Shown here piece by piece: positions 1,658 through 25,576 of a stretch of DNA of 29,666 nt. The DNA comes from a virus. Lineage: Duplodnaviria; Heunggongvirae; Uroviricota; Caudoviricetes. The stretch lies in IMG/VR virus record IMGVR_UViG_2695420874_000005; one strand, written 5' to 3'. Position 1 is the stretch's first letter. Every line of letters begins with the position of its first letter. The notes beneath the pieces are model-generated. The model was not told where the DNA came from and ran no database searches. It saw only the letters and a list, made by a program, of their open reading frames with translations. A program made the translations under genes and the position numbers.

Positions 1658-4009
1658 TTAACCGTCATGCATCATGCTGGCACGGGCGCGCGCACGTTTA
1701 TCCCGCTCGTATTTTTCGAGCGCATCCTGTAACTGGCGGTCAAGCTGTGTCCCCGGCGCAGTACCACCCGTCAGGTTGATGTGATATTCGTTTTTACTCT
1801 GGTCCACATAAGAGCGGCCAGCCGGTGCCGTAACCGGCTGATAAGCCTGATAGCCTGCATAAGAGCTGGTCGCCGGAATATAACCACCGGTGCCATACGT
1901 GGCGGCATGAGTTCTGGCTGCGGTCTGGTCAAGTGTGTCTGACTCTTTGTTGATAACACCGAGTTTTTCCAGTACCCAGTCAATACCGCTGCGCAGTTTG
2001 TTGAACGCATTAAGCGGTAGCATCAACGCGTCAGCCAGTGCCTGCCCGAACATGACGCCCGTGTCACGGCAACGGTTCAGGGTGTCCTGTGTGGCTTTGA
2101 CCGGGGCAATCAGGTTTTTAAACCACTGCCACGCGGCCTGTAACTTTTCGCCCAGCCAGTCAAACACCGGCTTAAGTGGCGTGAACAGTTCCCCCACCGG
2201 CGCAAATGCCGCTTTCAGCCCTTCAACCACACCGCCAAAGAATGCGCTGACAGGCTCCCAGTATTTACGGATAAGCAACGTCCCGGCGACAATGGCAGCC
2301 ACCACGGCCACAACCGGCCAGCTAATCGCCCCGATGGCGGTCATAACAGCACTGCCAACCGTCGTGAAGATTGCCCCCATTGCGCCTGCTGCCGCGATGA
2401 TGGCATTGATGCCGGTGATAACCGGCCAGGCTACAAGACCAATGGCACCGATGATGCCAATAAGCGCCAGCGCGCCACCGACAATGAGGCCGATGGTTGA
2501 CGCCAGTGATTTGTTTTTCTGGATCCAGCCGTCGAGTTTTAACACATACTTTGTGGCCGTCTGAGTGAGCTTACGCAGTGCGCCTTCCTGCTGGTCAAAC
2601 AGGTCTGTCCCCACCGCCTCATAAGCGGACTGAAACTCCTTAAAGTCACCGCCGAGGTTATCCTGCATGATTTTAACCAGCTCTTCCGTTTTACCGTCCG
2701 AGGCTTTCAGCGTGGCGGTCAGCTTATCCAGCTTTCCGCTTGCAGCCGCTGCCAGTAAAACGTTCGCTGATTTCAGGGCTTCCTCACCAAAAATGGTTTT
2801 AAGGTATTCCCCCTTCTGAGACGTTCCCAGCTTGTGTTTATCAAAGCTGGCCTGAATCTCTTTCAGAATGGTGAACAACGGACGCATATTTCCCTTTTTG
2901 TCCGAGGTTTTAACGCCAAGCTCTTTGAGTGCTTCCCATGCTTTCCCTGTCGGAGCCTGTAATCGGGTGACAACGGCACTACTACCAGTACCCGCCATTG
3001 ACCCCCTGATGTTATTGTCATGCAGCACACCGGTCATGGCTGCTGCCTGCTCAAGACTTACACCTGCCGTTCTTGCGACCGGGCCAAGATAAGTCAGTGC
3101 ATCACTGAGTCCCTGAAAATCAGCCGCCGACTTATTCATCGTTGCCGACAACACATCGCCCACATGGCTGACATCATCATTTGACAGTTGAAAAGATGCT
3201 TTAGTCCCCAGCAACAGTTGCGCGTTTTCTTCCATCGACCGCTGATTCGCCAGTGCCATATTCAGCGTGACCGGCGTTGCCGCCTGAATAGCCGCAGCAT
3301 CTCCACCCGCTTTCGCAATGATAATCTGTGCACCGGCTGCATCATCTGCCGAGGCTGCGGTATTGTCGCCGAGCTGGCGCGCCTGTTTGCGTAGCGCGGC
3401 CATTTCGGCGGAGTCTTTTGCGACACCGAGCACAGCCTGCAATTCTGAGTTTTTCTGCGCAAACTCATAACCGGGCATCAGCAGCTTAACACCGGCCATC
3501 GTTCCCGCAGCAGCAATCCCCACACCGGCAGCGCCCACTGAGGCCATATTTCCGGCCAGTTCCTTTCCGGCCTGATAACGCTGTTTTACTGCGTTAAGTT
3601 TTGCCTGTTGCGCACTGACACGCGCCAGCGCGTCACGCTGCCGGTTAAGCTGTACGGTGGTTTCACTGATACGGTTTTTCAGCCCTCGTTCATCATGCGC
3701 CAGATTACGGGTATTAATACCCGCCTGACTCAGTTCCTGACGCTGGCGCTGTACCGACAATCTCAGGCTGTTATATTTCGCCTGTAACTCCGACACATTT
3801 TTACGCGCGGCTTCCATTGCCTTTGCCTGTGCATTTGTTGGTCGTTCAGTATTTTTAAACTGGACAGCCAGTGCTGCGGCTTCCTGTCTGGCTTTTTTCA
3901 GTTCCTGACCAGTCACGGCGAGCTGTGCACTGGTCTTGCGGAACCCCTCAATACGGGATGCCTGGTCAACAGCCCTGAGCAATACCTGTAATTTTACATT
4001 GTTACTCAT
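1658..4009 (-). CDS. T: tail tape measure protein (P2 gpT-like), 783 aa
   Basis: Long Ala/Gly/Gln-rich coiled-coil-like protein with a C-terminal hydrophobic/Gly-rich segment; follows E/E' as in P2. Confidence 0.9.
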   Translation of the reverse strand: MSNNVKLQVLLRAVDQASRIEGFRKTSAQLAVTGQELKKARQEAAALAVQFKNTERPTNAQAKAMEAARKNVSELQAKYNSLRLSVQRQRQELSQAGINTRNLAHDERGLKNRISETTVQLNRQRDALARVSAQQAKLNAVKQRYQAGKELAGNMASVGAAGVGIAAAGTMAGVKLLMPGYEFAQKNSELQAVLGVAKDSAEMAALRKQARQLGDNTAASADDAAGAQIIIAKAGGDAAAIQAATPVTLNMALANQRSMEENAQLLLGTKASFQLSNDDVSHVGDVLSATMNKSAADFQGLSDALTYLGPVARTAGVSLEQAAAMTGVLHDNNIRGSMAGTGSSAVVTRLQAPTGKAWEALKELGVKTSDKKGNMRPLFTILKEIQASFDKHKLGTSQKGEYLKTIFGEEALKSANVLLAAAASGKLDKLTATLKASDGKTEELVKIMQDNLGGDFKEFQSAYEAVGTDLFDQQEGALRKLTQTATKYVLKLDGWIQKNKSLASTIGLIVGGALALIGIIGAIGLVAWPVITGINAIIAAAGAMGAIFTTVGSAVMTAIGAISWPVVAVVAAIVAGTLLIRKYWEPVSAFFGGVVEGLKAAFAPVGELFTPLKPVFDWLGEKLQAAWQWFKNLIAPVKATQDTLNRCRDTGVMFGQALADALMLPLNAFNKLRSGIDWVLEKLGVINKESDTLDQTAARTHAATYGTGGYIPATSSYAGYQAYQPVTAPAGRSYVDQSKNEYHINLTGGTAPGTQLDRQLQDALEKYERDKRARARASMMHDG

Positions 4010-6207: not shown

Positions 6208-6428
6208 CCGTTTAACTCCGTGGTTAATGGGTGAGTGGTATTTTCATGTGTGCCGGAGATGTCAGGCTATTTGTCCCGGTTGGCTGATGGATGGCACAAT
6301 TTATTCTTTGTCGCTGATGAGGCGAATTTTTTATAGAGCGTGGACAGGTCAATATCAAAAATCAGCGCCACACGTTGACGTGATTCCCTCGCAGCCAGCA
6401 ATCGTCCTGCCTGTTCCCACACAGTCGA

Positions 6429-6473
6429 TTATCTGGAGCACTGGAACTTGTCGAAATTTCCAGTGCTCCAGAT
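6429..6473 (-). terminator. 17-bp perfect hairpin immediately downstream of G (candidate terminator or RNA structure, no U-tract)
   Basis: Inverted repeat TATCTGGAGCACTGGAA / TTCCAGTGCTCCAGATA with an 11-nt loop, 11 bp after the G stop. Confidence 0.45.
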
Positions 6474-6483
6474 ATTGAATGGC

Positions 6484-10122: not shown

Positions 10123-10470
10123 TCAACTCACAGGGATGGTTAACGAAAGTGACTGGCCGGTGTCGTTGTGCTGGCCGGTTAACGTGACCGTCATTCGCCC
10201 GTCAAAGCTGCGCGCCGTGGTGACAGATGACAGGGTGACGCGGGGTTCCCATTTCAGCACCGCCATGTAACAGGCGACCTTAATCTGCAACTCAAGCGCC
10301 GGGGTCTGCGGCTGGTCAATCATTGATGCCAGCAACGAGCCGTAATCACGACGCATCACCCGTGAGCCGACCGGTGTGCGCAGGATATCGCCGATACTCT
10401 GGCTGATATGCTCAAGGTCAGTGACAGTCAGGCCATCACTGCGATTCATTCCGAGATAACGCGCAGTCAT
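10123..10470 (-). CDS. W: baseplate protein W (P2 gpW-like), 115 aa
   Basis: 115 aa as P2 gpW; overlaps V stop. Confidence 0.85.
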   Translation of the reverse strand: MTARYLGMNRSDGLTVTDLEHISQSIGDILRTPVGSRVMRRDYGSLLASMIDQPQTPALELQIKVACYMAVLKWEPRVTLSSVTTARSFDGRMTVTLTGQHNDTGQSLSLTIPVS

Positions 10471-11102
10471 AGAGGTCCCCCGGTTGTGCCGCCGCTGTCG
10501 CCGGGGTGTTTATGGGTATGCAGTACCTTACCGTTTGATGAGAGTTCACCGCCGGTGTGTTCAATGTTGCCGCGCATCGTCCCGCCCTTCTGCACTTCCA
10601 GCGTGCCGGTAGTCAGTTTGTTAGTGCAGACCACTTCCGGTGTGTCCAGGGTGACACGGGTTGACGCTTTCACCGTGACCACAGGCACCGTGGCAGTAAC
10701 AGAATCAGAAGCCGTCACGCTGGCCGTTTTAATTCCGCTTACCGTGAGTGCACTGGTTTCGGGTTCATATTCAATCACCGCCCCGTCAGGGAAACGGATA
10801 TGCAGGGCATCCGCCGACACAGACGGCGAGGGGTTATCACCGGAATAAATCCCCGGCAGAACGAACGCCGTGTCGAGTTCACCACCCACGGACAGAATCA
10901 GCACCTGTTCCCCCACGGAAGGCGCCCACCATGTGCGCGAACGTCCGGCGCGATGGGTCAGCCACTGAAGCCAGTCGGTGCACATGCCGCCGGTCTGCAC
11001 ACGGCAGCGACCGGCTTTAAGGTTGGTTTCGACGACAAGGCCGGTGCGAATCATGTTGCGCAGTGCGCGCGCGAGTTCCTGGATATTTGCGAGAGTGTTC
11101 AT
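10467..11102 (-). CDS. V: baseplate spike protein V (P2 gpV-like), 211 aa
   Basis: 211 aa; N-terminus MNTLANIQELARALRNMIRTG... as recalled for P2 gpV. Confidence 0.9.
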   Translation of the reverse strand: MNTLANIQELARALRNMIRTGLVVETNLKAGRCRVQTGGMCTDWLQWLTHRAGRSRTWWAPSVGEQVLILSVGGELDTAFVLPGIYSGDNPSPSVSADALHIRFPDGAVIEYEPETSALTVSGIKTASVTASDSVTATVPVVTVKASTRVTLDTPEVVCTNKLTTGTLEVQKGGTMRGNIEHTGGELSSNGKVLHTHKHPGDSGGTTGGPL

Positions 11103-11168
11103 AACGGGAAGGATGCCGCCGGGTCATACCGGCGGCAATGTGACGATGAGGTGTCAGGAATGGCACAA

Positions 11169-11549
11169 CTAACGGTCGAGGTGAGCCAGAATAATCTCTT
11201 CAATCATCTGCACATCCTCACCGGTAAAGCCGAGCAGGGGACGCGCCGGATAATCAATTTTCTTACCGTCCTTCCGGGTTTCTTCCGACAGACCGAACTG
11301 ATGCACACTGGCGATTTTCGGTGACTTCCCGCCGTAAAACTCCATTGATGCCTGTTCCGGGCTGGCGCGGATATCGGCACTTAAATCGCCGTTCGTCTCC
11401 GGGTCACTGCCCGGCATCGGGCAAAGGCTCACTTTCGGGCAGGCGTTGGCGACAATCACTGGCGTCGGTGCAGGCCGGGCGCTGGTGCAACCGGCGCACA
11501 GCATCAGGCAGGCCAGCGCCGTACCAGCGGCGAAAATCTTCGTTTTCAT
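11169..11549 (-). CDS. lysC: LysC-like o-spanin lipoprotein embedded in lysB frame, with unusually long C-terminal extension (126 aa)
   Basis: Starts inside lysB in a different frame; SD GAGG 9 nt upstream; signal peptide with lipobox-like LCAGC; Pro-rich mature N-terminus; C-terminal about 60 aa look globular. Confidence 0.6.
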   Translation of the reverse strand: MKTKIFAAGTALACLMLCAGCTSARPAPTPVIVANACPKVSLCPMPGSDPETNGDLSADIRASPEQASMEFYGGKSPKIASVHQFGLSEETRKDGKKIDYPARPLLGFTGEDVQMIEEIILAHLDR

Positions 11550-11829
11550 TCAGTAACCTCGTGATGGTTTTCTCGCGCTGTGCTTCACGCTTCGCCGCGT
11601 TCTCCAGTTCCTGACGCAGTGCCACCTGCGCCAGCTCGTTTTTGTCTGCTCTGGTGAGGGCAACATGAAGCTGATTTTTCAGCATGGTGATGGTCGTCTG
11701 CTGCCCGTTGGCGACGTTGTTCGCCCTGTCCAGCGAGGTGCGCAGGCTGGCGTTTTCATGCTTCGCCAGAAACAGACCCGCCACCGCCAGCGATAACAAC
11801 ACGACCAGCACAATCATCAGCCTTGACAT
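11404..11829 (-). CDS. lysB: LysB-like i-spanin (141 aa)
   Basis: N-terminal transmembrane helix followed by charged coiled-coil-like region; 141 aa as P2 LysB. Confidence 0.75.
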   Translation of the reverse strand: MSRLMIVLVVLLSLAVAGLFLAKHENASLRTSLDRANNVANGQQTTITMLKNQLHVALTRADKNELAQVALRQELENAAKREAQREKTITRLLNENEDFRRWYGAGLPDAVRRLHQRPACTDASDCRQRLPESEPLPDAGQ

Positions 11830-19752: not shown

Positions 19753-19959
19753 CGCCCGCTTCATGGGGCGCTTTTAATGCAGTTTCATGAATACGTTGGA
19801 AGCGCGCCAGACGTCACGGACAATACTTCAAATAAGTAAAGCTAATGCATGCAAAAAAATTCACGTCCATGCATACACCAGAAACTGCCATTTATAAGGA
19901 TGATGTATGCAGTAGCCATATAAAAAGCTATACTCTTGCCGGTTTATCAGGGGGAGAAA

Positions 19960-20943
19960 ATGCCAAAAGCTGTATCATTGTTCTCGGGTTGTGGTGGTTC
20001 CGATGCTGGATTAAGCAAAGCTGGTTTCGACATCGTTATGGCAAACGATATTTTGCCATATGCGAGAGAGGTTTATCTCGCAAACCTACCAGAAACAGAT
20101 TACCTAATCCAAGATATCCGAGAAGTTGAAAAATTTCCGAGTGCAGACCTTCTTGTTGGATGCTATCCATGCCAAGGATTTAGCCAAGGTGGCGCACGTC
20201 TTGCGGACAGGAGTATAAATTTTTTATATAAAGAGTTTGCACGTGCATTAACCAATATTCAACCTAAAGCATTTATTGTCGAAAATGTTTCAGGTATGAG
20301 AAATAGTACATTTAAGCATCTACTCGATGATCAAATAAAACGCTTCTCCAATGCTGGTAATATAGGCTATAAAGTTGTTTGGAATATACTCAAAGCTCAC
20401 CACTACGGTGTACCGCAAGAGCGTAAGAGATTAATAATTGTAGGTATTCGTAACGACTTCGACCTAGAATATAAATTCCCTGAAGCCACACATGGTGAGG
20501 AAAAATCATTACCTTATGTAACAATCGGTGAAGCACTAAAGGGATTACCTGAATGGCCAATCGGTGAGTTTTGTGATGACCCATTTCACTGGTACTATTT
20601 ATCTAGGAATAGACGCCGCAACTGGGACGAAGTTAGTAAAACTATCGTAAGTAATCTTCGTCATATTCCCTTGCATCCCATCAGCCCCGAATTAAAAAAA
20701 GTGGGTATAGACAAGTGGGAGTTTATAACAAACTCGCCAGCCAGACGCTTCTCTTATAAAGAAGCGGCGATTCTGCAAGGGTTTAGTAAAGAATATACCA
20801 ATCATGGTGGTTATCTAACTTTTCCTGACATGGATAGTTTTGGGGCCGCACGGATGTTAAAAGAGAGATATAAGGTCGTAGGTAATGCAGTTCCACCACC
20901 TTTGTTTGAAGCGGTTGTGAGAAACATCCCTGATATATGGTAA
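19960..20943 (+). CDS. DNA (cytosine-5)-methyltransferase, 327 aa
   Basis: Motif I LFSGCGG, motif IV PCQ (Cys71, TGC at 20170-20172), motif VI ENV, motif VIII QERKR, motif X GNAVPPPL; SD GGGGAG 6 nt before ATG 19960; AT-rich. Confidence 0.85.
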   Translation: MPKAVSLFSGCGGSDAGLSKAGFDIVMANDILPYAREVYLANLPETDYLIQDIREVEKFPSADLLVGCYPCQGFSQGGARLADRSINFLYKEFARALTNIQPKAFIVENVSGMRNSTFKHLLDDQIKRFSNAGNIGYKVVWNILKAHHYGVPQERKRLIIVGIRNDFDLEYKFPEATHGEEKSLPYVTIGEALKGLPEWPIGEFCDDPFHWYYLSRNRRRNWDEVSKTIVSNLRHIPLHPISPELKKVGIDKWEFITNSPARRFSYKEAAILQGFSKEYTNHGGYLTFPDMDSFGAARMLKERYKVVGNAVPPPLFEAVVRNIPDIW

Positions 20944-20944
20944 T

Positions 20945-20966
20945 GGCCCATCACTGGGCCTTTTTT
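20945..20966 (+). terminator. intrinsic terminator of the methyltransferase gene, overlapping the 3' end of the convergent 318-aa gene
   Basis: GGCCCA-tcac-TGGGCC hairpin followed by TTTTTT, starting 2 bp after the MTase stop; covers the last codons of the convergent gene. Confidence 0.55.
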
Positions 20967-21907
20967 AATTCTTTACAAAAGGTAATTAACGCATCTAACT
21001 CATCCTGCATATCACCAAATTCATCCTTAAAACGCTCATATGCAATAGTTAAACGGACTCGATCAAATATAATTCCAGCTTCTGCGCTTGCTTCTCTTAT
21101 CATTTCATCAACTAACACATAAGGTGTTGAGAAAACTTTAACACACTTAATGTAAGTTAATGGATGAAACCATGGTGTTAACCTTTCAATTTTAATATCC
21201 TGAAACTTTGTTGACCAATCATTACCACAAGCGCATTGCCCTAAAGCAAATAAACGTCCATCTCTACCATCCAAAAAATCAACCCATGTAACAAAATCCA
21301 CACCACAATCTTTAATTCTCAATGCATCCTCATCTCTTAAGCCATTCTCTACGCGCCAAGACCATTCTCTTGTATTTGGTGAGATCGAAGAGTTCAGTTT
21401 ATAAGCTAGTTCCTTATAACTACTAGGATTTCCATTTGAACGAGGCCAACCAGTATGCATGTGTTTTGCGTGTGAACTAAAAAATTTTGTGAATAATCGC
21501 CCAGCCATAACTTCAAAAAATCTAGGCAACTTAACATTATCTCCTTTTGTTAAATTATTAATTACAGAGACACATAAGCAAAACAGATAAACAAGGGAAG
21601 GAGACTCCTTTAATGTTAGATGATTTTCTTTATATTCAAATGGATACATATCATCCAAAACCTTTGCTCTCCATTGTATATGCTCGGCAATCTGACCAAC
21701 TAAAAGCTCCTTTCCCTGATCTTCCATCATCCATTCTTCTTCCAAATGACCATCTAAATTTTCTAACTCATCATAGATAGTTCCAGCAATTTTATCATCC
21801 TCAATTCCTGAGTCTATTGTCGCGCTAACATCAAGTAATGCATTAAATTCTGCTTGATCCGCATCTGTTGCGAATCCCTGCATTTTAGAGCGTAAACCAT
21901 AATTCAC
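20951..21907 (-). CDS. hypothetical protein, 318 aa, second gene of hotspot operon (possible nuclease/effector)
   Basis: GTG start 2 bp after upstream stop with SD GAGGG 9 nt upstream (translational coupling); AT-rich; no Walker A motif; no motif recognised by eye. Confidence 0.6.
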   Translation of the reverse strand: MNYGLRSKMQGFATDADQAEFNALLDVSATIDSGIEDDKIAGTIYDELENLDGHLEEEWMMEDQGKELLVGQIAEHIQWRAKVLDDMYPFEYKENHLTLKESPSLVYLFCLCVSVINNLTKGDNVKLPRFFEVMAGRLFTKFFSSHAKHMHTGWPRSNGNPSSYKELAYKLNSSISPNTREWSWRVENGLRDEDALRIKDCGVDFVTWVDFLDGRDGRLFALGQCACGNDWSTKFQDIKIERLTPWFHPLTYIKCVKVFSTPYVLVDEMIREASAEAGIIFDRVRLTIAYERFKDEFGDMQDELDALITFCKELKKAQ

Positions 21908-21909
21908 AA

Positions 21910-23085
21910 TTAAAAACCCTCACTATCACTTCCAGTAATAGCCTCATTAATTGATACTCTAAAAGATCTAAATTGTTTACTTATTTGCTCAAGATATATA
22001 TTAAGTTGAATAGCATCCTGCATTGGTAAATCTTCACGCCCTACCCTCGTAAGACATTCGTCCAATTTACTTCTAATTTCTAACATTAAACTAGTCAACC
22101 TATCGCCGATTGGCTGAGTTAGGTCATTAATGTCTTCAACATCCTTGCCTTGCTTGAGCAGTATAACTTTTTCTGGAGAAGCAACTATCTCAGCCAAGAC
22201 ACCAAGATTACGAGAGTCTTTAACTTGTGAGTTTTGTCCTTTATTTTTATTACCAAACATAGCTGTCATTAGAAGCTTCGCATTATCCAATTTCTTTTCA
22301 TCTATTGGATTAGGGTCTGTAGGATTATCTGATAAGCCCACAAAATCCTGAATACTCTTATAACTCAGCAATGTATAAACCCACGAGAATGGATAACTAG
22401 TATTGCTCCCTCTCCCTTTCTTCACACTATCATCTTTATTATACTTCCCAGCAGACTCCATTTGTTTAATGAAATTATATCCAGACAAAAGTCTTTTTAT
22501 AGTGCTATTACGGTCACCAATCATAGTGGAAATATCAGATACGCTCATATCTCCTTCCTTGATGGTTCGAGATATCCATGCAGCCTTAGCGTATGAATCC
22601 CAATCCTTTGTAGATACGATATGCCTCACACCTAAATATGATATAAGTGATTTTTTATCTACACCATCATCGTCTTCAAAAACTATTGCTGGAACTGGGT
22701 CTATTTTAGGGCACCCATGAGAATTGTATTTATCAATATACTGTTGATGCAGATTAACTTGATCTCTTGCTCTGTCATCATTTTTAAGTATAAGACAGGC
22801 AGCCAGCCTTCTATTACCTTCCATTACAGTGAATTTCTTATTATTATTTTTCCTCACCACCATTGGCTCAGCAGAAAAATAACCATTCACTGCAATAGAA
22901 CTTATTACATCAGTAACGCCATAATTTTTAACAATATTATTCAGCACATCAACTTGTGTATCAGATGAAGAAGAGTCTTCACCAAAGCGGGGGTTTTCAA
23001 CATCAAGCTCCAGATCTTCAATATTAATATATTGAACTGCTTTATGTTTTAATTTATCCTCCACACCTACCGAGTTTTTTTTCAT
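21910..23085 (-). CDS. ParB/Srx-like N-terminal domain protein with putative HTH, 391 aa
   Basis: N-terminal region (aa about 17-100) with ParB-like pattern and GxRRxxA-type motif (EGNRRLAA, nt 22807-22821); HTH-like segment MSVSDISTMIGDRNSTIKRLL; strong SD GGGGAGGGG before ATG; AT-rich. Confidence 0.65.
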   Translation of the reverse strand: MKKNSVGVEDKLKHKAVQYINIEDLELDVENPRFGEDSSSSDTQVDVLNNIVKNYGVTDVISSIAVNGYFSAEPMVVRKNNNKKFTVMEGNRRLAACLILKNDDRARDQVNLHQQYIDKYNSHGCPKIDPVPAIVFEDDDGVDKKSLISYLGVRHIVSTKDWDSYAKAAWISRTIKEGDMSVSDISTMIGDRNSTIKRLLSGYNFIKQMESAGKYNKDDSVKKGRGSNTSYPFSWVYTLLSYKSIQDFVGLSDNPTDPNPIDEKKLDNAKLLMTAMFGNKNKGQNSQVKDSRNLGVLAEIVASPEKVILLKQGKDVEDINDLTQPIGDRLTSLMLEIRSKLDECLTRVGREDLPMQDAIQLNIYLEQISKQFRSFRVSINEAITGSDSEGF

Positions 23086-23281: not shown

Positions 23282-25576
23282 TCAAGCACCACAATCAAAA
23301 AAATCAACAGAAGGAAATCCAAGCCACTCATCAGCGACCTGATAAGTGAAATGTTTCCCGTCATAATTTACGGTTGCCCCACGCGCCAGCGCCTCAAGCT
23401 CCCATCGCTGCGGCCTGATACCGTTCTGAGCAAGGTCAACGCGGATACGGGTGATTTGCATTCTTTCCGACCGGGTCAGTCTGGCCGATGGTGCAATTTC
23501 ATGTGGTTTTAACGGGCTTCCGTTTCTTTGCTGACGGTTTGGCGTTCTCAGGTCGTATTTTAGTGCGCCCCTGAGCGCCCTCACGACCTCCGGTTCATTC
23601 CATTCAATAACACCGTCATCAACCAGATTAAGCACTGCTGCGGCGTGCTCAGAAGGTGTGGGAGCCGGTAACGAAGTATCACCACCGGTGAGCTTTCCAC
23701 AGTTATTGACAGGACTCCGAGGCGCGGCGATGCCGCTTTTTAAAGTCAAAGGCTCAACGACCGGAACTTTCGGCACAATGCGCCACTCCGTCGTTCTGGT
23801 GATATGAATATGACGCGCGCCGAGATGCGGTGCGTAAATGCCGACCACTCTCTCGACCTCTTCCTCGTACTCGTTAACGTCATCCGACGGGCTACGGGCG
23901 ACCCTGACAGTCTGACAATCGCGCGGGACATTTGCCCCACCCTGCGCGCGGATATACAACGCAAAATCACCACTGTCTGCGGCGGCGCGTGCAGCCTCGA
24001 CGCGCTCGTCAAACTCATCAGCAATGCTGACGCCGCGAGGCAATTTGCGTAGTTCACGGTAAGCCCCCATTGTCGGCAGGCCAACCGTTTTAAATTGTGG
24101 TATGCGCCACGTTGACGCCCATGCGGTAACAGCCGCCGCTGTGTCTTTCAGCGGCCTGCCGGTATCGTTATCGAGCTGACCATCCAGTGCATAGCCATCG
24201 ATGTTTTTTGAGATGTATTTCGCGATATATCCCGCAGCACCGCCCCGGTTAAGGTGTTTTGCCTGAAAACGGTTTCGCGCGGCTCCTCTTTCGTCACCAT
24301 CCTCTTTGAGCGCATAGCGACGCATGATTTCGATAATCTGGTTACGCTGGCGTGGATTACAAAAAAGCATCATATGCCAGTGCGGCGTTCCGTCGTGGTG
24401 TGGCTCGACGACACGCAAACCGTAGACCTGTAAATCATTATCCTTGAATGCCGTGCGCATCAGGCTCCAGATACGGCAGAGATAACGCTGCGCATCCTTT
24501 GGATTAAATGCCTCATCATTCCAGCCGTGATTAAGCTGGACGGTTTTTCTTTCGCCTTTTCCGACCTGACGTGTCGGGTGATACTTTGACGGCGCGGTCA
24601 GCGTGATAAACATCCCCACATCACCCTCTGCGGCGGCGTAACGCTCAATACCGGCAATGGTGTTCATCAGCTCCATCCGGCGAATTTCAGGATTAGAAAT
24701 ACTGCCCATCACCTTACTGATAAGGTCGATGCGTTCGCCGGTTTCCCTGTTTTCAAGGTCACACGATTTAAGAAATTCCAGATTTGCCTGGCGGCGCGCA
24801 CGCACATCACGAATGGCGTGTTTACTGGCATAAGGAGAACGGTCTTTATTGACCTCCCCGACAGCTATCAGTAACGCTTCATGCCAGCGCATACGCTGGC
24901 CTTTAAGCTGACTAATCCACCACTCATCGTTAAACAGACGGGCAATGGCAGAATATGCCTGCCTCGTGGTCATCTGTCCTTTACGGTATTTTTTCCAGTA
25001 GAGAGGGGAAATATTGAAAGCACGTGCAGCGCCAGCAACATGACCATAGAGGTGAGCCTGCGCCTCATCCGTAAACAGCGATTCTTTTTCGCCATGCGCA
25101 TCCACCCAGGCATCGCAGAGTTCCTCATACATCATGAAAAGCTGCGATGAAATACGGGCGGCAAACTTTTTCAGCTCCTTATCATTCATCCCCGGCAGAC
25201 GCGCATAATGGTCACGCTCTGCCAGAAACAGCAACGACGCGTCGGTGTTCATTTCATGGCGCTGATTCACGCGCTCAATGCGCGGCCATAAACGACGCTG
25301 AAAAGTGGATGTGAGGAAATAAAACCCGTGCACCGGGCTTTTATTGCGCCGGATGTAGTCATAGCGTGAAGTAAACAGCGAACGCAAAAAGTAAGGCAGG
25401 CGGTTAATCGTGGATAAAACACCTTGCACCTGACGCATCTCGTCACGTGTAAGGGGTCTTTCGCGCCCGACGGCCTCGCGTGGCGCGTTCCATGCATAAG
25501 CACCGGTAAACGCCTTACCGGTGCCTGCAGCAAATGCTGAAGGAGGGACAAAACGCCCGGAGGCTTTAACGGCCAT
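23282..25576 (-). CDS. A: replication initiation endonuclease (P2 gpA-like rolling-circle initiator), 764 aa
   Basis: Start at MAVKASGRFVPP (ATG 25576); long match to P2 gpA as recalled; the TTG start at 25618 in the ORF track is rejected. Confidence 0.9.
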   Translation of the reverse strand: MAVKASGRFVPPSAFAAGTGKAFTGAYAWNAPREAVGRERPLTRDEMRQVQGVLSTINRLPYFLRSLFTSRYDYIRRNKSPVHGFYFLTSTFQRRLWPRIERVNQRHEMNTDASLLFLAERDHYARLPGMNDKELKKFAARISSQLFMMYEELCDAWVDAHGEKESLFTDEAQAHLYGHVAGAARAFNISPLYWKKYRKGQMTTRQAYSAIARLFNDEWWISQLKGQRMRWHEALLIAVGEVNKDRSPYASKHAIRDVRARRQANLEFLKSCDLENRETGERIDLISKVMGSISNPEIRRMELMNTIAGIERYAAAEGDVGMFITLTAPSKYHPTRQVGKGERKTVQLNHGWNDEAFNPKDAQRYLCRIWSLMRTAFKDNDLQVYGLRVVEPHHDGTPHWHMMLFCNPRQRNQIIEIMRRYALKEDGDERGAARNRFQAKHLNRGGAAGYIAKYISKNIDGYALDGQLDNDTGRPLKDTAAAVTAWASTWRIPQFKTVGLPTMGAYRELRKLPRGVSIADEFDERVEAARAAADSGDFALYIRAQGGANVPRDCQTVRVARSPSDDVNEYEEEVERVVGIYAPHLGARHIHITRTTEWRIVPKVPVVEPLTLKSGIAAPRSPVNNCGKLTGGDTSLPAPTPSEHAAAVLNLVDDGVIEWNEPEVVRALRGALKYDLRTPNRQQRNGSPLKPHEIAPSARLTRSERMQITRIRVDLAQNGIRPQRWELEALARGATVNYDGKHFTYQVADEWLGFPSVDFFDCGA

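What the first reader, a model, noticed from the sequence alone, without database searches (positions are those of the whole stretch)
11103..11549. Tail completion genes R and S appear to be missing between the lysis cassette and V
In P2 the order is lysB/lysC-R-S-V. Here the LysC-like ORF is followed by only 66 bp (containing an 8-bp GC hairpin, GCCGCCGG-tatgac-CCGGCGGC) before the V start codon. No R- or S-sized ORF exists anywhere in the window. The LysC-like ORF is 126 aa, about 30 aa longer than the roughly 96 aa I recall for P2 LysC, and its C-terminal part looks like a globular protein fragment rather than a proline-rich spanin. This is consistent with a deletion that fused lysC in frame to the 3' end of a downstream gene. 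If so, the prophage would probably be defective for tail completion.
Basis: partly seen in the sequence, partly recalled or inferred. Interest (0 to 1): 0.6.

Follow-up and report, generated by a model that had tools for sequence, protein, structure and literature searches.

The report
P2-like prophage missing tail-completion genes
A 785-base deletion in this P2-like E. coli prophage removed tail gene R and half of tail gene S and fused the leftovers of lysC and S into one reading frame, so the prophage is probably defective; its S-side breakpoint recurs in many unrelated deletions of related prophages, and I could not explain why.

Summary
The window is a P2-like (Peduovirus) prophage on the minus strand.

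- **The deletion:** compared with phage Wphi, phage 569R9 and a 99.3%-identical prophage in E. coli E2, exactly 785 bp are missing between lysC and S. The junction is a 7-bp microhomology (ATATCCG, window 11368-11374).
- **The fusion:** LysC residues 1-61 are joined in frame to gpS residues about 85-150 (ORF 11169-11549, 126 aa). R is gone. No R or S N-terminal sequence exists elsewhere in the window.
- **Unaffected parts:** LysB, V, the 66-bp S-V spacer and its hairpin are as in intact relatives.
- **Further decay:** a second, private 96-bp in-frame deletion lies in tape-measure gene T.
- **Rarity:** none of 84 matching phage records or 5,426 complete E. coli genomes has this junction. Four draft or read-run assemblies do, in three backgrounds about 3% diverged.

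By itself this is ordinary prophage decay. The unexpected part is the S-side breakpoint (GCATA|TCCGCG), which also ends at least 18 other independent deletions with different partner genes. A second S site behaves the same way, and "TA" crossovers are strongly over-represented. The cause is unresolved.

The parts
11169..11549 (-). lysC'-'S fusion ORF, 126 aa: LysC residues 1-61 (signal peptide, lipobox Cys, proline-rich part) joined in frame to gpS residues about 85-150
   Evidence: An NCBI annotation of the same fusion from a later start codon is P0001, carrying Pfam LysC plus Phage_tail_S.
11368..11374 (-). Deletion junction: the single retained copy of the 7-bp direct repeat ATATCCG. Intact relatives carry it once in lysC and once in S, 785 bp apart. 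The one break point compatible with all events at this S site lies between 11371 and 11372.
11404..11829 (-). lysB (Rz-like i-spanin), intact at 141 aa. Its stop codon lies 30 bp before the junction.
   Evidence: 95.7% identity to Wphi LysB over 141 aa
11103..11168 (-). Normal S-V intergenic spacer of P2-like phages that lack orf30. It contains the 8-9 bp GC hairpin (11114-11137) and the region where the Ogr-dependent V promoter is expected.
   Evidence: The promoter position is inferred from the P2 annotation.
10467..11102 (-). Gene V (baseplate spike), intact at 211 aa
3954..3964 (-). Second deletion junction: 96 bp lost in frame near the 5' end of tape-measure gene T (ORF 1658-4009, 783 aa against 815 aa). 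BLAST pieces overlap by 11 bp here; the exact microhomology against P2 is 8 bp (GCATCCCG).

Best explanation
The window is a P2-like prophage that has suffered a 785-bp deletion running from codon 62 of lysC to codon 84 of S.

**What the deletion did (shown).** It removed the C-terminal 35 residues of the o-spanin LysC, all of tail gene R (called tail completion or tail terminator in the phage records), and the N-terminal 84 or so residues of tail-completion protein gpS. The remains form one in-frame lysC'-'S ORF.

**How it arose (part shown, part inferred).** It is shown that intact relatives carry a 7-bp direct repeat (ATATCCG) at both ends and that one copy remains here. It is inferred that the join was microhomology-mediated (strand slippage, template switching or end joining). 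The S-side end (GCATA|TCCGCG) is a recurrent breakpoint in P2-like prophages, so a strand break or replication stall at that site probably started the event, and the 7-bp match in nearby lysC then chose the partner.

**Consequences (inferred).**
- With no gpR and no functional gpS, the element cannot complete infectious tails on its own.
- The truncated o-spanin probably also impairs the last step of lysis.
- With the extra 96-bp deletion in T, this is a decaying, probably defective prophage. It could still propagate only if a co-resident P2-like helper supplies R and S.
For: - **Size and position of the gap:** a 785-bp gap with a 7-bp overlap against Wphi and 569R9 and against the 99.3%-identical E2 prophage, which has R and S.
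- **Composition of the fusion:** frame arithmetic and fusion sequence; domain halves.
- **No spare copies:** no R or S N-terminus elsewhere in the window.
- **Essentiality:** the P2 RefSeq record annotates R and S as essential tail genes and lysB/lysC as nonessential for growth, affecting the timing of lysis.
- **Not an assembly artefact:** a Logan contig from run ERR137823 is 100% identical over 13.4 kb. The same junction occurs in SRR29541131, SRR17525321 and GCA_051381295.1.
- **Further decay:** the second private deletion in T.
- **Recurrence of the S-side breakpoint:** 15 different left partners and 4 right partners.
Against: - Function was not tested. The fusion ORF is intact and could be expressed.
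- The host genome outside the window is unknown, so helper prophages that complement in trans cannot be excluded.
- The same lysC-S junction in three backgrounds about 3% diverged could mean recurrence, or spread by recombination. Spread would imply the allele persists and is not simply a dead end.
- The agent that makes the S site a hotspot was not identified.
Confidence: 0.93

Rival explanations
1. This lineage of P2-like phages naturally lacks separate R and S genes at this position, or carries functional equivalents elsewhere in the element.
For: None found. Four complete genomes have shortened R-S regions, but these are other deletions.
Against: - All 72 phage records that cover the region have the extra 785 bp. 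None of the 84 matching phage records or the 5,426 complete E. coli genomes has this junction.
- The closest relative has R and S.
- The window holds no other R or S sequence.
Confidence: 0.01
2. The junction is an assembly or sequencing artefact: a collapsed or chimeric contig.
For: A 7-bp repeat sits at the junction, and the origin of the window is unknown.
Against: - Seven bases are far too short to mislead an assembler.
- The identical junction is present in four independent assemblies or read sets, three of them in sequence backgrounds that differ by about 3%.
- Analogous junctions at the same S site occur in complete hybrid-assembled genomes.
Confidence: 0.02
3. The deleted element is not a dead end but a helper-dependent cheater. 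It keeps cos (not in hand here), int, replication genes, and head and most tail genes. It spreads by using gpR and gpS from co-infecting or co-resident P2-like phages. The deletion allele may also move between P2-like genomes by homologous recombination.
For: - The same junction occurs in three diverged backgrounds.
- Apart from T, every other P2-type gene ORF in the window has the length expected from P2 and E2.
- Some E. coli genomes carry more than one P2-like prophage (up to 3 places per genome with the T query).
Against: - Two of the three backgrounds are much more degraded, which fits vertical decay.
- The junction is absent from all 84 sequenced phage records.
- Recurrence at a hotspot with the best local microhomology explains the sharing equally well.
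Confidence: 0.12
4. The deletion arose by plain replication slippage between the two ATATCCG copies. The apparent hotspot at the S end is only a sampling effect of my protein searches.
For: - The 7-bp repeat is the kind of substrate slippage uses.
- The first protein query began exactly at S residue 84, and three top hits share the junction word DIRAS.
Against: - Fusions with a breakpoint anywhere upstream of residue 84 would score the same, yet all 25 heterologous fusions found at the protein level sit at one of two positions.
- DNA-pattern scans and complete genomes that do not depend on that query give further events at the same nucleotide: L016, L005, and L146-L149.
- Several partners share only 0-3 nt with the site.
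Confidence: 0.08

Closest known systems
lysB-lysC-R-S-V region of P2-like phages (P2 NC_001895, Wphi NC_005056, vB_EcoM-569R9)
   Same: 96-98% nucleotide identity on both sides of the junction. Same gene order, same lysB/lysC overlap, and the same S-V spacer as Wphi and 569R9.
   Different: 785 bp are missing: the lysC 3' end, all of R, and the 5' 250 bp of S. P2 itself also carries orf30 between S and V, which this lineage lacks.
Other deleted P2-like prophages in complete E. coli genomes (ABW_A32/A33 and XJ6.2; UR21/11-869)
   Same: Deletions that remove R and/or part of S. Their right ends fall exactly at the same two S sites: R'|S site A in ABW_A32, and R'|S site B in UR21/11-869.
   Different: The left end points differ (inside R rather than lysC), so these are independent events. 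ABW_A32 also lacks parts of J and I.
Illegitimate recombination anchored at a rolling-circle origin nick (M13 and pC194 origins, Michel and Ehrlich 1986; recalled from my own knowledge, not checked in the library)
   Same: One deletion end is fixed to the nucleotide. The other end varies, with little or no homology.
   Different: The fixed sites here lie in gene S, not at the P2 origin. They do not resemble the annotated P2 nick site in register. The true P2 ori nick is an end point in only one fusion I saw, P0251.
Generic prophage decay or domestication (for example the ogrK-yegZ P2 remnant of E. coli K-12; from my own knowledge)
   Same: Loss of essential virion genes by deletion in an integrated P2-like element.
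   Different: This is an early stage. Only two small deletions are present, and every other P2-type ORF has the expected length.

Membership tests
P2-like (Peduovirus) prophage | P2 gene order and high nucleotide identity to sequenced Peduovirus genomes | tested here: met
   Order D-U-T-E-FII-FI-tfa-H-I-J-W-V ... lysB-lysA-K-Y-X-L-M-N-O / P-Q / cargo / A ... B-cox / C-int. 96-99% identity to Peduovirus records and to the E2 prophage.
P2-like (Peduovirus) prophage | Complete set of essential late genes, which would make it a functional phage | tested here: not met
   R is absent, S lacks its first 84 or so codons, and T lacks 32 codons.
LysC / Rz1-like o-spanin (Pfam PF23793) | N-terminal signal peptide with lipobox cysteine, and the family profile above the curated cut-off | tested here: met
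   29.8 bits against a cut-off of 27, profile positions 1-46 of 69. The sequence reads MKTKIFAAGTALACLMLCAGC....
LysC / Rz1-like o-spanin (Pfam PF23793) | Complete mature protein, including the C-terminal third that would face the i-spanin LysB | tested here: not met
   Residues 62-96 of the 96-aa protein are replaced by gpS sequence. The role of that part in spanin contact is inferred from the Rz/Rz1 model, not tested.
gpS / Phage_tail_S virion morphogenesis family (Pfam PF05069) | Full-length domain (profile 148 positions) | tested here: not met
   Only profile positions 77-147 are present. S residues 1-83 are found nowhere in the window.
gpR tail completion / tail terminator protein (Pfam PF06891) | Presence of a homologue in the element | tested here: not met
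   tblastn of Wphi gpR against all six frames of the window gives a best E of 0.046 over 20 aa.
Short-homology (microhomology) mediated deletion | A short direct repeat at both end points in the intact sequence, with one copy kept in the product | tested here: met
   ATATCCG occurs at both end points in Wphi, 569R9 and P2-type references, and one copy remains at 11368-11374.
Site-specific strand breakage or recombination at a defined sequence | The same nucleotide position used in independent events with different partners | tested here: met
   S site A has 15 left partners and 4 right partners. S site B has 13 partners.
Site-specific strand breakage or recombination at a defined sequence | An identified enzyme and recognition sequence | tested here: inconclusive
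   - There is no register match to the P2 ori nick.
- There is no similarity to the attP core beyond chance.
- There is no significant hairpin.
- TA crossovers are enriched.
- Two of the four or five TATCCGCG copies on the late-gene strand of P2/E2 are used as end points in the same register, TA|TCCGCG.
- No enzyme can be named.

The most novel reading that the evidence does not exclude
P2-like prophages are broken and rejoined at a small set of nucleotide-precise sites.

**The sites (P2 coordinates).** Two lie in gene S: GCATA|TCCGCG and GGCTG|ACCGGA. Others are at J 11393 and J 11424, FI 18475, and D 23745-23747.

**The signature.** Crossovers usually fall on a TA dinucleotide and share only 0-7 nt with the partner. 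This points to a sequence-selective nicking or strand-transfer activity, or to a very specific replication stall, that drives prophage inactivation, rather than to random deletion.

**Candidate agents, none supported:** an HUH-type enzyme (P2 gpA, IS200-type TnpA, or a REP-associated Y1 transposase), a tyrosine recombinase acting on pseudo-sites (for example Rci or Int), or a topoisomerase. If this reading is right, the window's R-S deletion is one product of that process.
Probability: 0.4. Interest if true: 0.7.

Novelty: new member of a known kind. Interest (0 to 1): 0.42.

Why it matters
Taken alone, the finding matters little. It is one more prophage inactivated by a small deletion, useful mainly as an annotation warning, because NCBI's annotation names the fusion "LysC" and prophage predictors might still call the element intact.

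It matters more as an entry point. The same S-gene nucleotide ends at least 19 independent deletions in P2-like prophages. A second S site ends 13 more. TA crossovers are over-represented more than tenfold.

If a defined activity causes this, it would be a concrete, testable mechanism for how one of the commonest E. coli prophage families is inactivated. It would also give a marker for telling independent inactivation events from inherited ones.

Tried and rejected
**1. P2 gpA cutting a pseudo-origin.**
- Site A shares GCAT..CCGCGCC with the origin on the same strand.
- However, the annotated nick (P2 29892) lies 3' of that motif and the deletion break lies 5' of it. Site B shows no similarity, and P2 itself has TCCGTG at site A.
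- Not supported.

**2. P2 Int acting on pseudo-att sites.** Ungapped similarity of 13 break sites to the 28-bp attP core is no better than at random positions.

**3. Hairpin-induced stalling or SbcCD cleavage.** Folding 99 nt around each site gives z-scores of 0.31 and -0.68.

**4. DNA gyrase with a 4-bp stagger and subunit exchange.**
- Site B fits the classical consensus, recalled from memory, in 11 of 13 positions, and site A in 9 of 13.
- A staggered exchange predicts that about half of the products would carry the partner's four bases. None of 15 does.

**5. Other ideas from memory.** I considered the XerC arm, the Cin/Gin invertase half-site, the Rci sfx arm, the REP arm, the E. coli type I-E CRISPR repeat (a 10-nt identity, CCGCGCCAGC), IS630-type TA targeting, restriction sites, Chi, primase CTG sites, RuvC and RusA. 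Each gives partial resemblances only, and none explains both S sites in register. All rest on memory and were not tested.

**6. Looking for this junction elsewhere.**
- It is absent from one-genome-per-species contigs, IMG/VR, 84 phage records and 5,426 complete E. coli genomes.
- An exact-protein lookup of the 126-aa ORF found nothing, because gene callers chose later start codons.

**7. Testing the TATCCGCG idea in IMG/VR.** No further events turned up at the I 12402 or D 23097 sites.

**8. Literature.** Rousset et al. 2022 on P2 hotspots (PMC9122126) does not discuss defective or deleted P2 prophages. The paper that mapped the P2 A-protein cleavage site (PMC332061) is not held.

**9. A candidate dropped.** P0026 (140 aa, 545 members, Salmonella) looked like a widespread site-B event. 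It starts MAGLTESLS, so it is more likely a later start-codon call in a variant S. I dropped it from the counts.

Full report
**What the window is.** The ORF layout, megablast against phage records and against complete E. coli genomes show a P2-like (Peduovirus) prophage with its late genes on the minus strand. The window runs from the stop codon of D (position 1) to the stop codon of int (29666).
- The order is D, U, T, E/E', FII, FI, tfa, H, I, J, W, V, then the ORF in question.
- It continues with lysB, lysA, K, Y, X, L, M, N, O; then P and Q on the plus strand; a three-gene cargo block; A; small early genes; B; a cox-like gene; C; and int.

**Check of the observation.** All the stated facts hold.
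- The ORF at 11169-11549 (minus strand) encodes 126 aa.
- V starts at 11102 and the spacer is 66 bp.
- The hairpin arms are 11115-11122 and 11129-11136.
- LysC of phage Wphi is 96 aa.
- tblastn with Wphi LysC, R, S and LysB places LysC 1-61 at 11549-11367 and S 84-150 at 11372-11172. LysB is complete at 11829-11407. Nothing credible matches R or the first 83 residues of S anywhere in the window.
- Pfam sees the N-terminal two thirds of LysC and the C-terminal half of Phage_tail_S in the one ORF. PHROGs gives the same split.

**What happened.** A 1,401-base query across the region matches 2,186 bases in every full-length phage hit, in two pieces.
- Against Wphi and vB_EcoM-569R9 the pieces are query 1-933 and 927-1401, so 785 bp are missing and 7 bp overlap.
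- The overlap is ATATCCG. It is present once in lysC (GAT ATC CGA) and once in S (CAT ATC CGC), and one copy remains at window 11368-11374.
- The deletion length puts S in frame with lysC. The fusion reads ...GDLSADIR|ASPEQASMEF....
- lysB ends 30 bp upstream of the junction and is untouched.
- The S-V spacer with its hairpin aligns without a break to intact phages. It is therefore the normal spacer of P2-like phages that lack orf30. P2 itself carries orf30 there.
- The hairpin is not called a terminator by the simple scan.

**Is it real, and how common is it?**
- The closest relatives in complete genomes are prophages of E. coli E2 and GF131. They are 99.3% identical over window 3954-25000 and carry the 785 bp with annotated R and S.
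- None of the 84 matching phage records or the 5,426 complete E. coli genomes has this junction. Nor do the species-representative genomes or IMG/VR.
- The protein collection holds the same fusion called from later start codons: P0001 (111 aa, named LysC by NCBI) and P0002 (82 aa).
- Their contigs show the junction in a Logan assembly of ERR137823 that is 100% identical to the window over 13.4 kb.
- The junction also appears in two other backgrounds about 3% diverged: SRR29541131, and GCA_051381295.1 together with SRR17525321. Both carry additional large deletions.
- The junction is therefore real, rare, and either recurrent or moved by recombination.

**Consequences (inferred).** The P2 RefSeq record annotates R and S as essential tail genes (tail completion), and lysB and lysC as nonessential genes that affect the timing of lysis.
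- Without R, and with only the last 66 or so residues of S, the element should not complete infectious tails unaided.
- The o-spanin lacks its last 35 residues.
- The window also has a private 96-bp in-frame deletion near the 5' end of T (783 against 815 aa; 8-bp exact microhomology). No listed complete genome shows it as a single piece.
- Two deletions in virion genes fit early prophage decay. Trans-complementation by a helper cannot be excluded, because the rest of the host genome is not in hand.

**The unexpected part: a fixed end point in S.** The homology search with the fusion protein returned many other odd proteins. Their sequences are fusions of different P2 genes to S at only two positions.
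- At site A (...|IRASPEQ) the partners are cox (two types), orf78, an antisense ORF of the P gene, M (two positions), Y, K, lysA, lysB (two positions), S itself, and lysC (this window).
- At site B (...|TGLIESLS) the partners are cox, A, three antisense ORFs of the P/Q region, L, X, Y (two positions) and lysB.
- DNA from contigs and complete genomes confirms these and adds more.
  - At site A: R'|S in ABW_A32, ABW_A33 and XJ6.2; N|S in an IMG/VR contig; lysB|S; M|S; cox|S.
  - At site B: R'|S in UR21/11-869; L|S; and two M|S events.
- A search with S residues 1-83 showed the mirror image. S is kept up to ...SRFLH and then joined to D, T or J.
- At DNA level all four of these keep exactly ...TTTTTTGCATA.
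- The only break compatible with every site-A event is GCATA|TCCGCG. For site B it is GGCT|G|ACCGGA.
- Shared bases with the partner range from 0 to 7.

**More hotspots and a TA signature.** I compared 120 IMG/VR P2-like loci and the other fetched loci with P2, which gave 25 distinct deletion junctions. The S|X loci added more, for 33 in all.
- Other end points recur in independent events: J 11424 three times, J 11393 twice, FI 18475/18477 twice, and D 23745-23747 twice.
- One contig (L147) keeps a 32-nt island bounded by exactly J 11393 and J 11424.
- In 15 of the 33 junctions the crossover zone contains TA. The null expectation is 0.7%, or 4.1% given at least 2 nt of microhomology, which gives p of about 1e-12. 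Leaving out the S-site events, it is 7 of 18.
- The retained right-hand sides often begin TATCCGCG, TAACCG or TATCG.
- TATCCGCG occurs only four or five times on the late-gene strand of P2/E2. Two of those copies are used as end points in the same register, TA|TCCGCG: site A in E2-type phages, and I 12402. An ATCCGCGCC site at D 23097 is also an end point, but about 5 nt out of that register.

**Mechanism.** I could not identify the agent.
- The P2 origin nick, annotated at 29892, resembles site A in a GCAT..CCGCGCC stretch but in the wrong register.
- The true nick is an end point in one cox-A fusion.
- Similarity to the attP core is at chance level, and there is no significant secondary structure.
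- A staggered gyrase exchange is contradicted, because the product always carries the right-hand site's bases.
- What the data do show is a nucleotide-precise break that can serve either as a left or a right end and is joined with little homology. That is the pattern expected for a site-specific nick or a very specific replication stall.
- For this window, my best account is a break at site A joined to the best nearby microhomology, which is the ATATCCG in lysC 785 bp upstream. That step is inference.

**Comparison and verdict.** As a biological object it is an ordinary, early-stage defective P2-like prophage, and a new allele of a known kind of event. The recurrent breakpoints are, as far as the held literature shows, not described. 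They are the reason the interest score is moderate rather than low.

Noticed in passing
window 11371/11372 (S site A), and the equivalent of P2 8946-8949 (S site B, deleted in this window); loci L004, L005, L010-L014, L016, L088, L138, L146-L149: Two nucleotide-precise recurrent deletion end points lie in gene S of P2-like prophages: GCATA|TCCGCG and GGCT|G|ACCGGA. Site A is used with 15 left partners and 4 right partners, and site B with 13 partners. Complete genomes are among the carriers.
   Followed up: partly
P2 coordinates J 11393, J 11424, FI 18475/18477, D 23745-23747, I 12402; loci L005, L006/L007, L114, L147, and proteins P0121, P0125: There are further recurrent deletion end points, and TA is strongly over-represented in the crossover zone: 15 of 33 junctions against a null of 0.7-4%. 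Locus L147 keeps a 32-nt island bounded by two of these sites.
   Followed up: partly
window 3954-3964 (T gene, ORF 1658-4009): A private 96-bp in-frame deletion (32 codons, 8-bp exact microhomology GCATCCCG) lies near the 5' end of tape-measure gene T. Every listed complete genome carries the longer form. If the element were otherwise functional, this might shorten or disable the tail.
   Followed up: partly
window 19936-23085: The cargo block sits at the P2 position between Q and A, the position of old and tin in P2.
- A C5 cytosine DNA methylase (DruM / type II MTase-like).
- A 318-aa protein with no Pfam or PADLOC match (phrog_14650).
- A 391-aa protein whose N-terminus resembles ParB and PADLOC PD-Lambda-5_A.

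This may be a defence locus.
   Followed up: partly
L006 / L007 (GCA_051381295.1, SRR17525321): The same lysC-S junction sits in a much more degraded prophage about 3% diverged. That prophage carries an AAA_15/AAA_21 ATPase plus a DUF4435 gene pair (PARIS-like by domain content), an IS200-type Y1 transposase, a Q-to-Y deletion (P2 893 to 6936) and a J-to-FI deletion. Recurrence and recombinational spread of the junction were not distinguished.
   Followed up: partly
window 23721-23734 (minus strand, inside gene A) and 23945-23958: The P2-type replication origin sequence GGCATCGCCGCGCC lies here. It shares GCAT..CCGCGCC with S site A. A second A-gene stretch, TGTATATCCGCGCG, shares ATATCCGCGC with site A. 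This may be chance.
   Followed up: partly
window 6227-6480, including a 20-nt inverted repeat at 6430-6449 / 6455-6474: In the near-identical E2 prophage, the region between FI and the tail-fibre assembly gene is annotated with a partial HTH (invertase-like) pseudogene and a partial tail-fibre assembly pseudogene. This suggests the remnant of an invertible tail-fibre segment. Locus L149 still has an intact resolvase/invertase gene at this place.
   Followed up: no
proteins P0293, P0294, P0296 (gene A): Three A-internal deletions, with left ends at two positions in A, all resume at (L)PAPTPSEH, about 17 codons downstream of the origin nick. This is another possible recurrent end point.
   Followed up: no
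protein P0001 (NCBI): NCBI's annotation names the lysC'-'S fusion simply 'Rz1-like lysis system protein LysC', so the loss of R and S is invisible in the product names.
   Followed up: no
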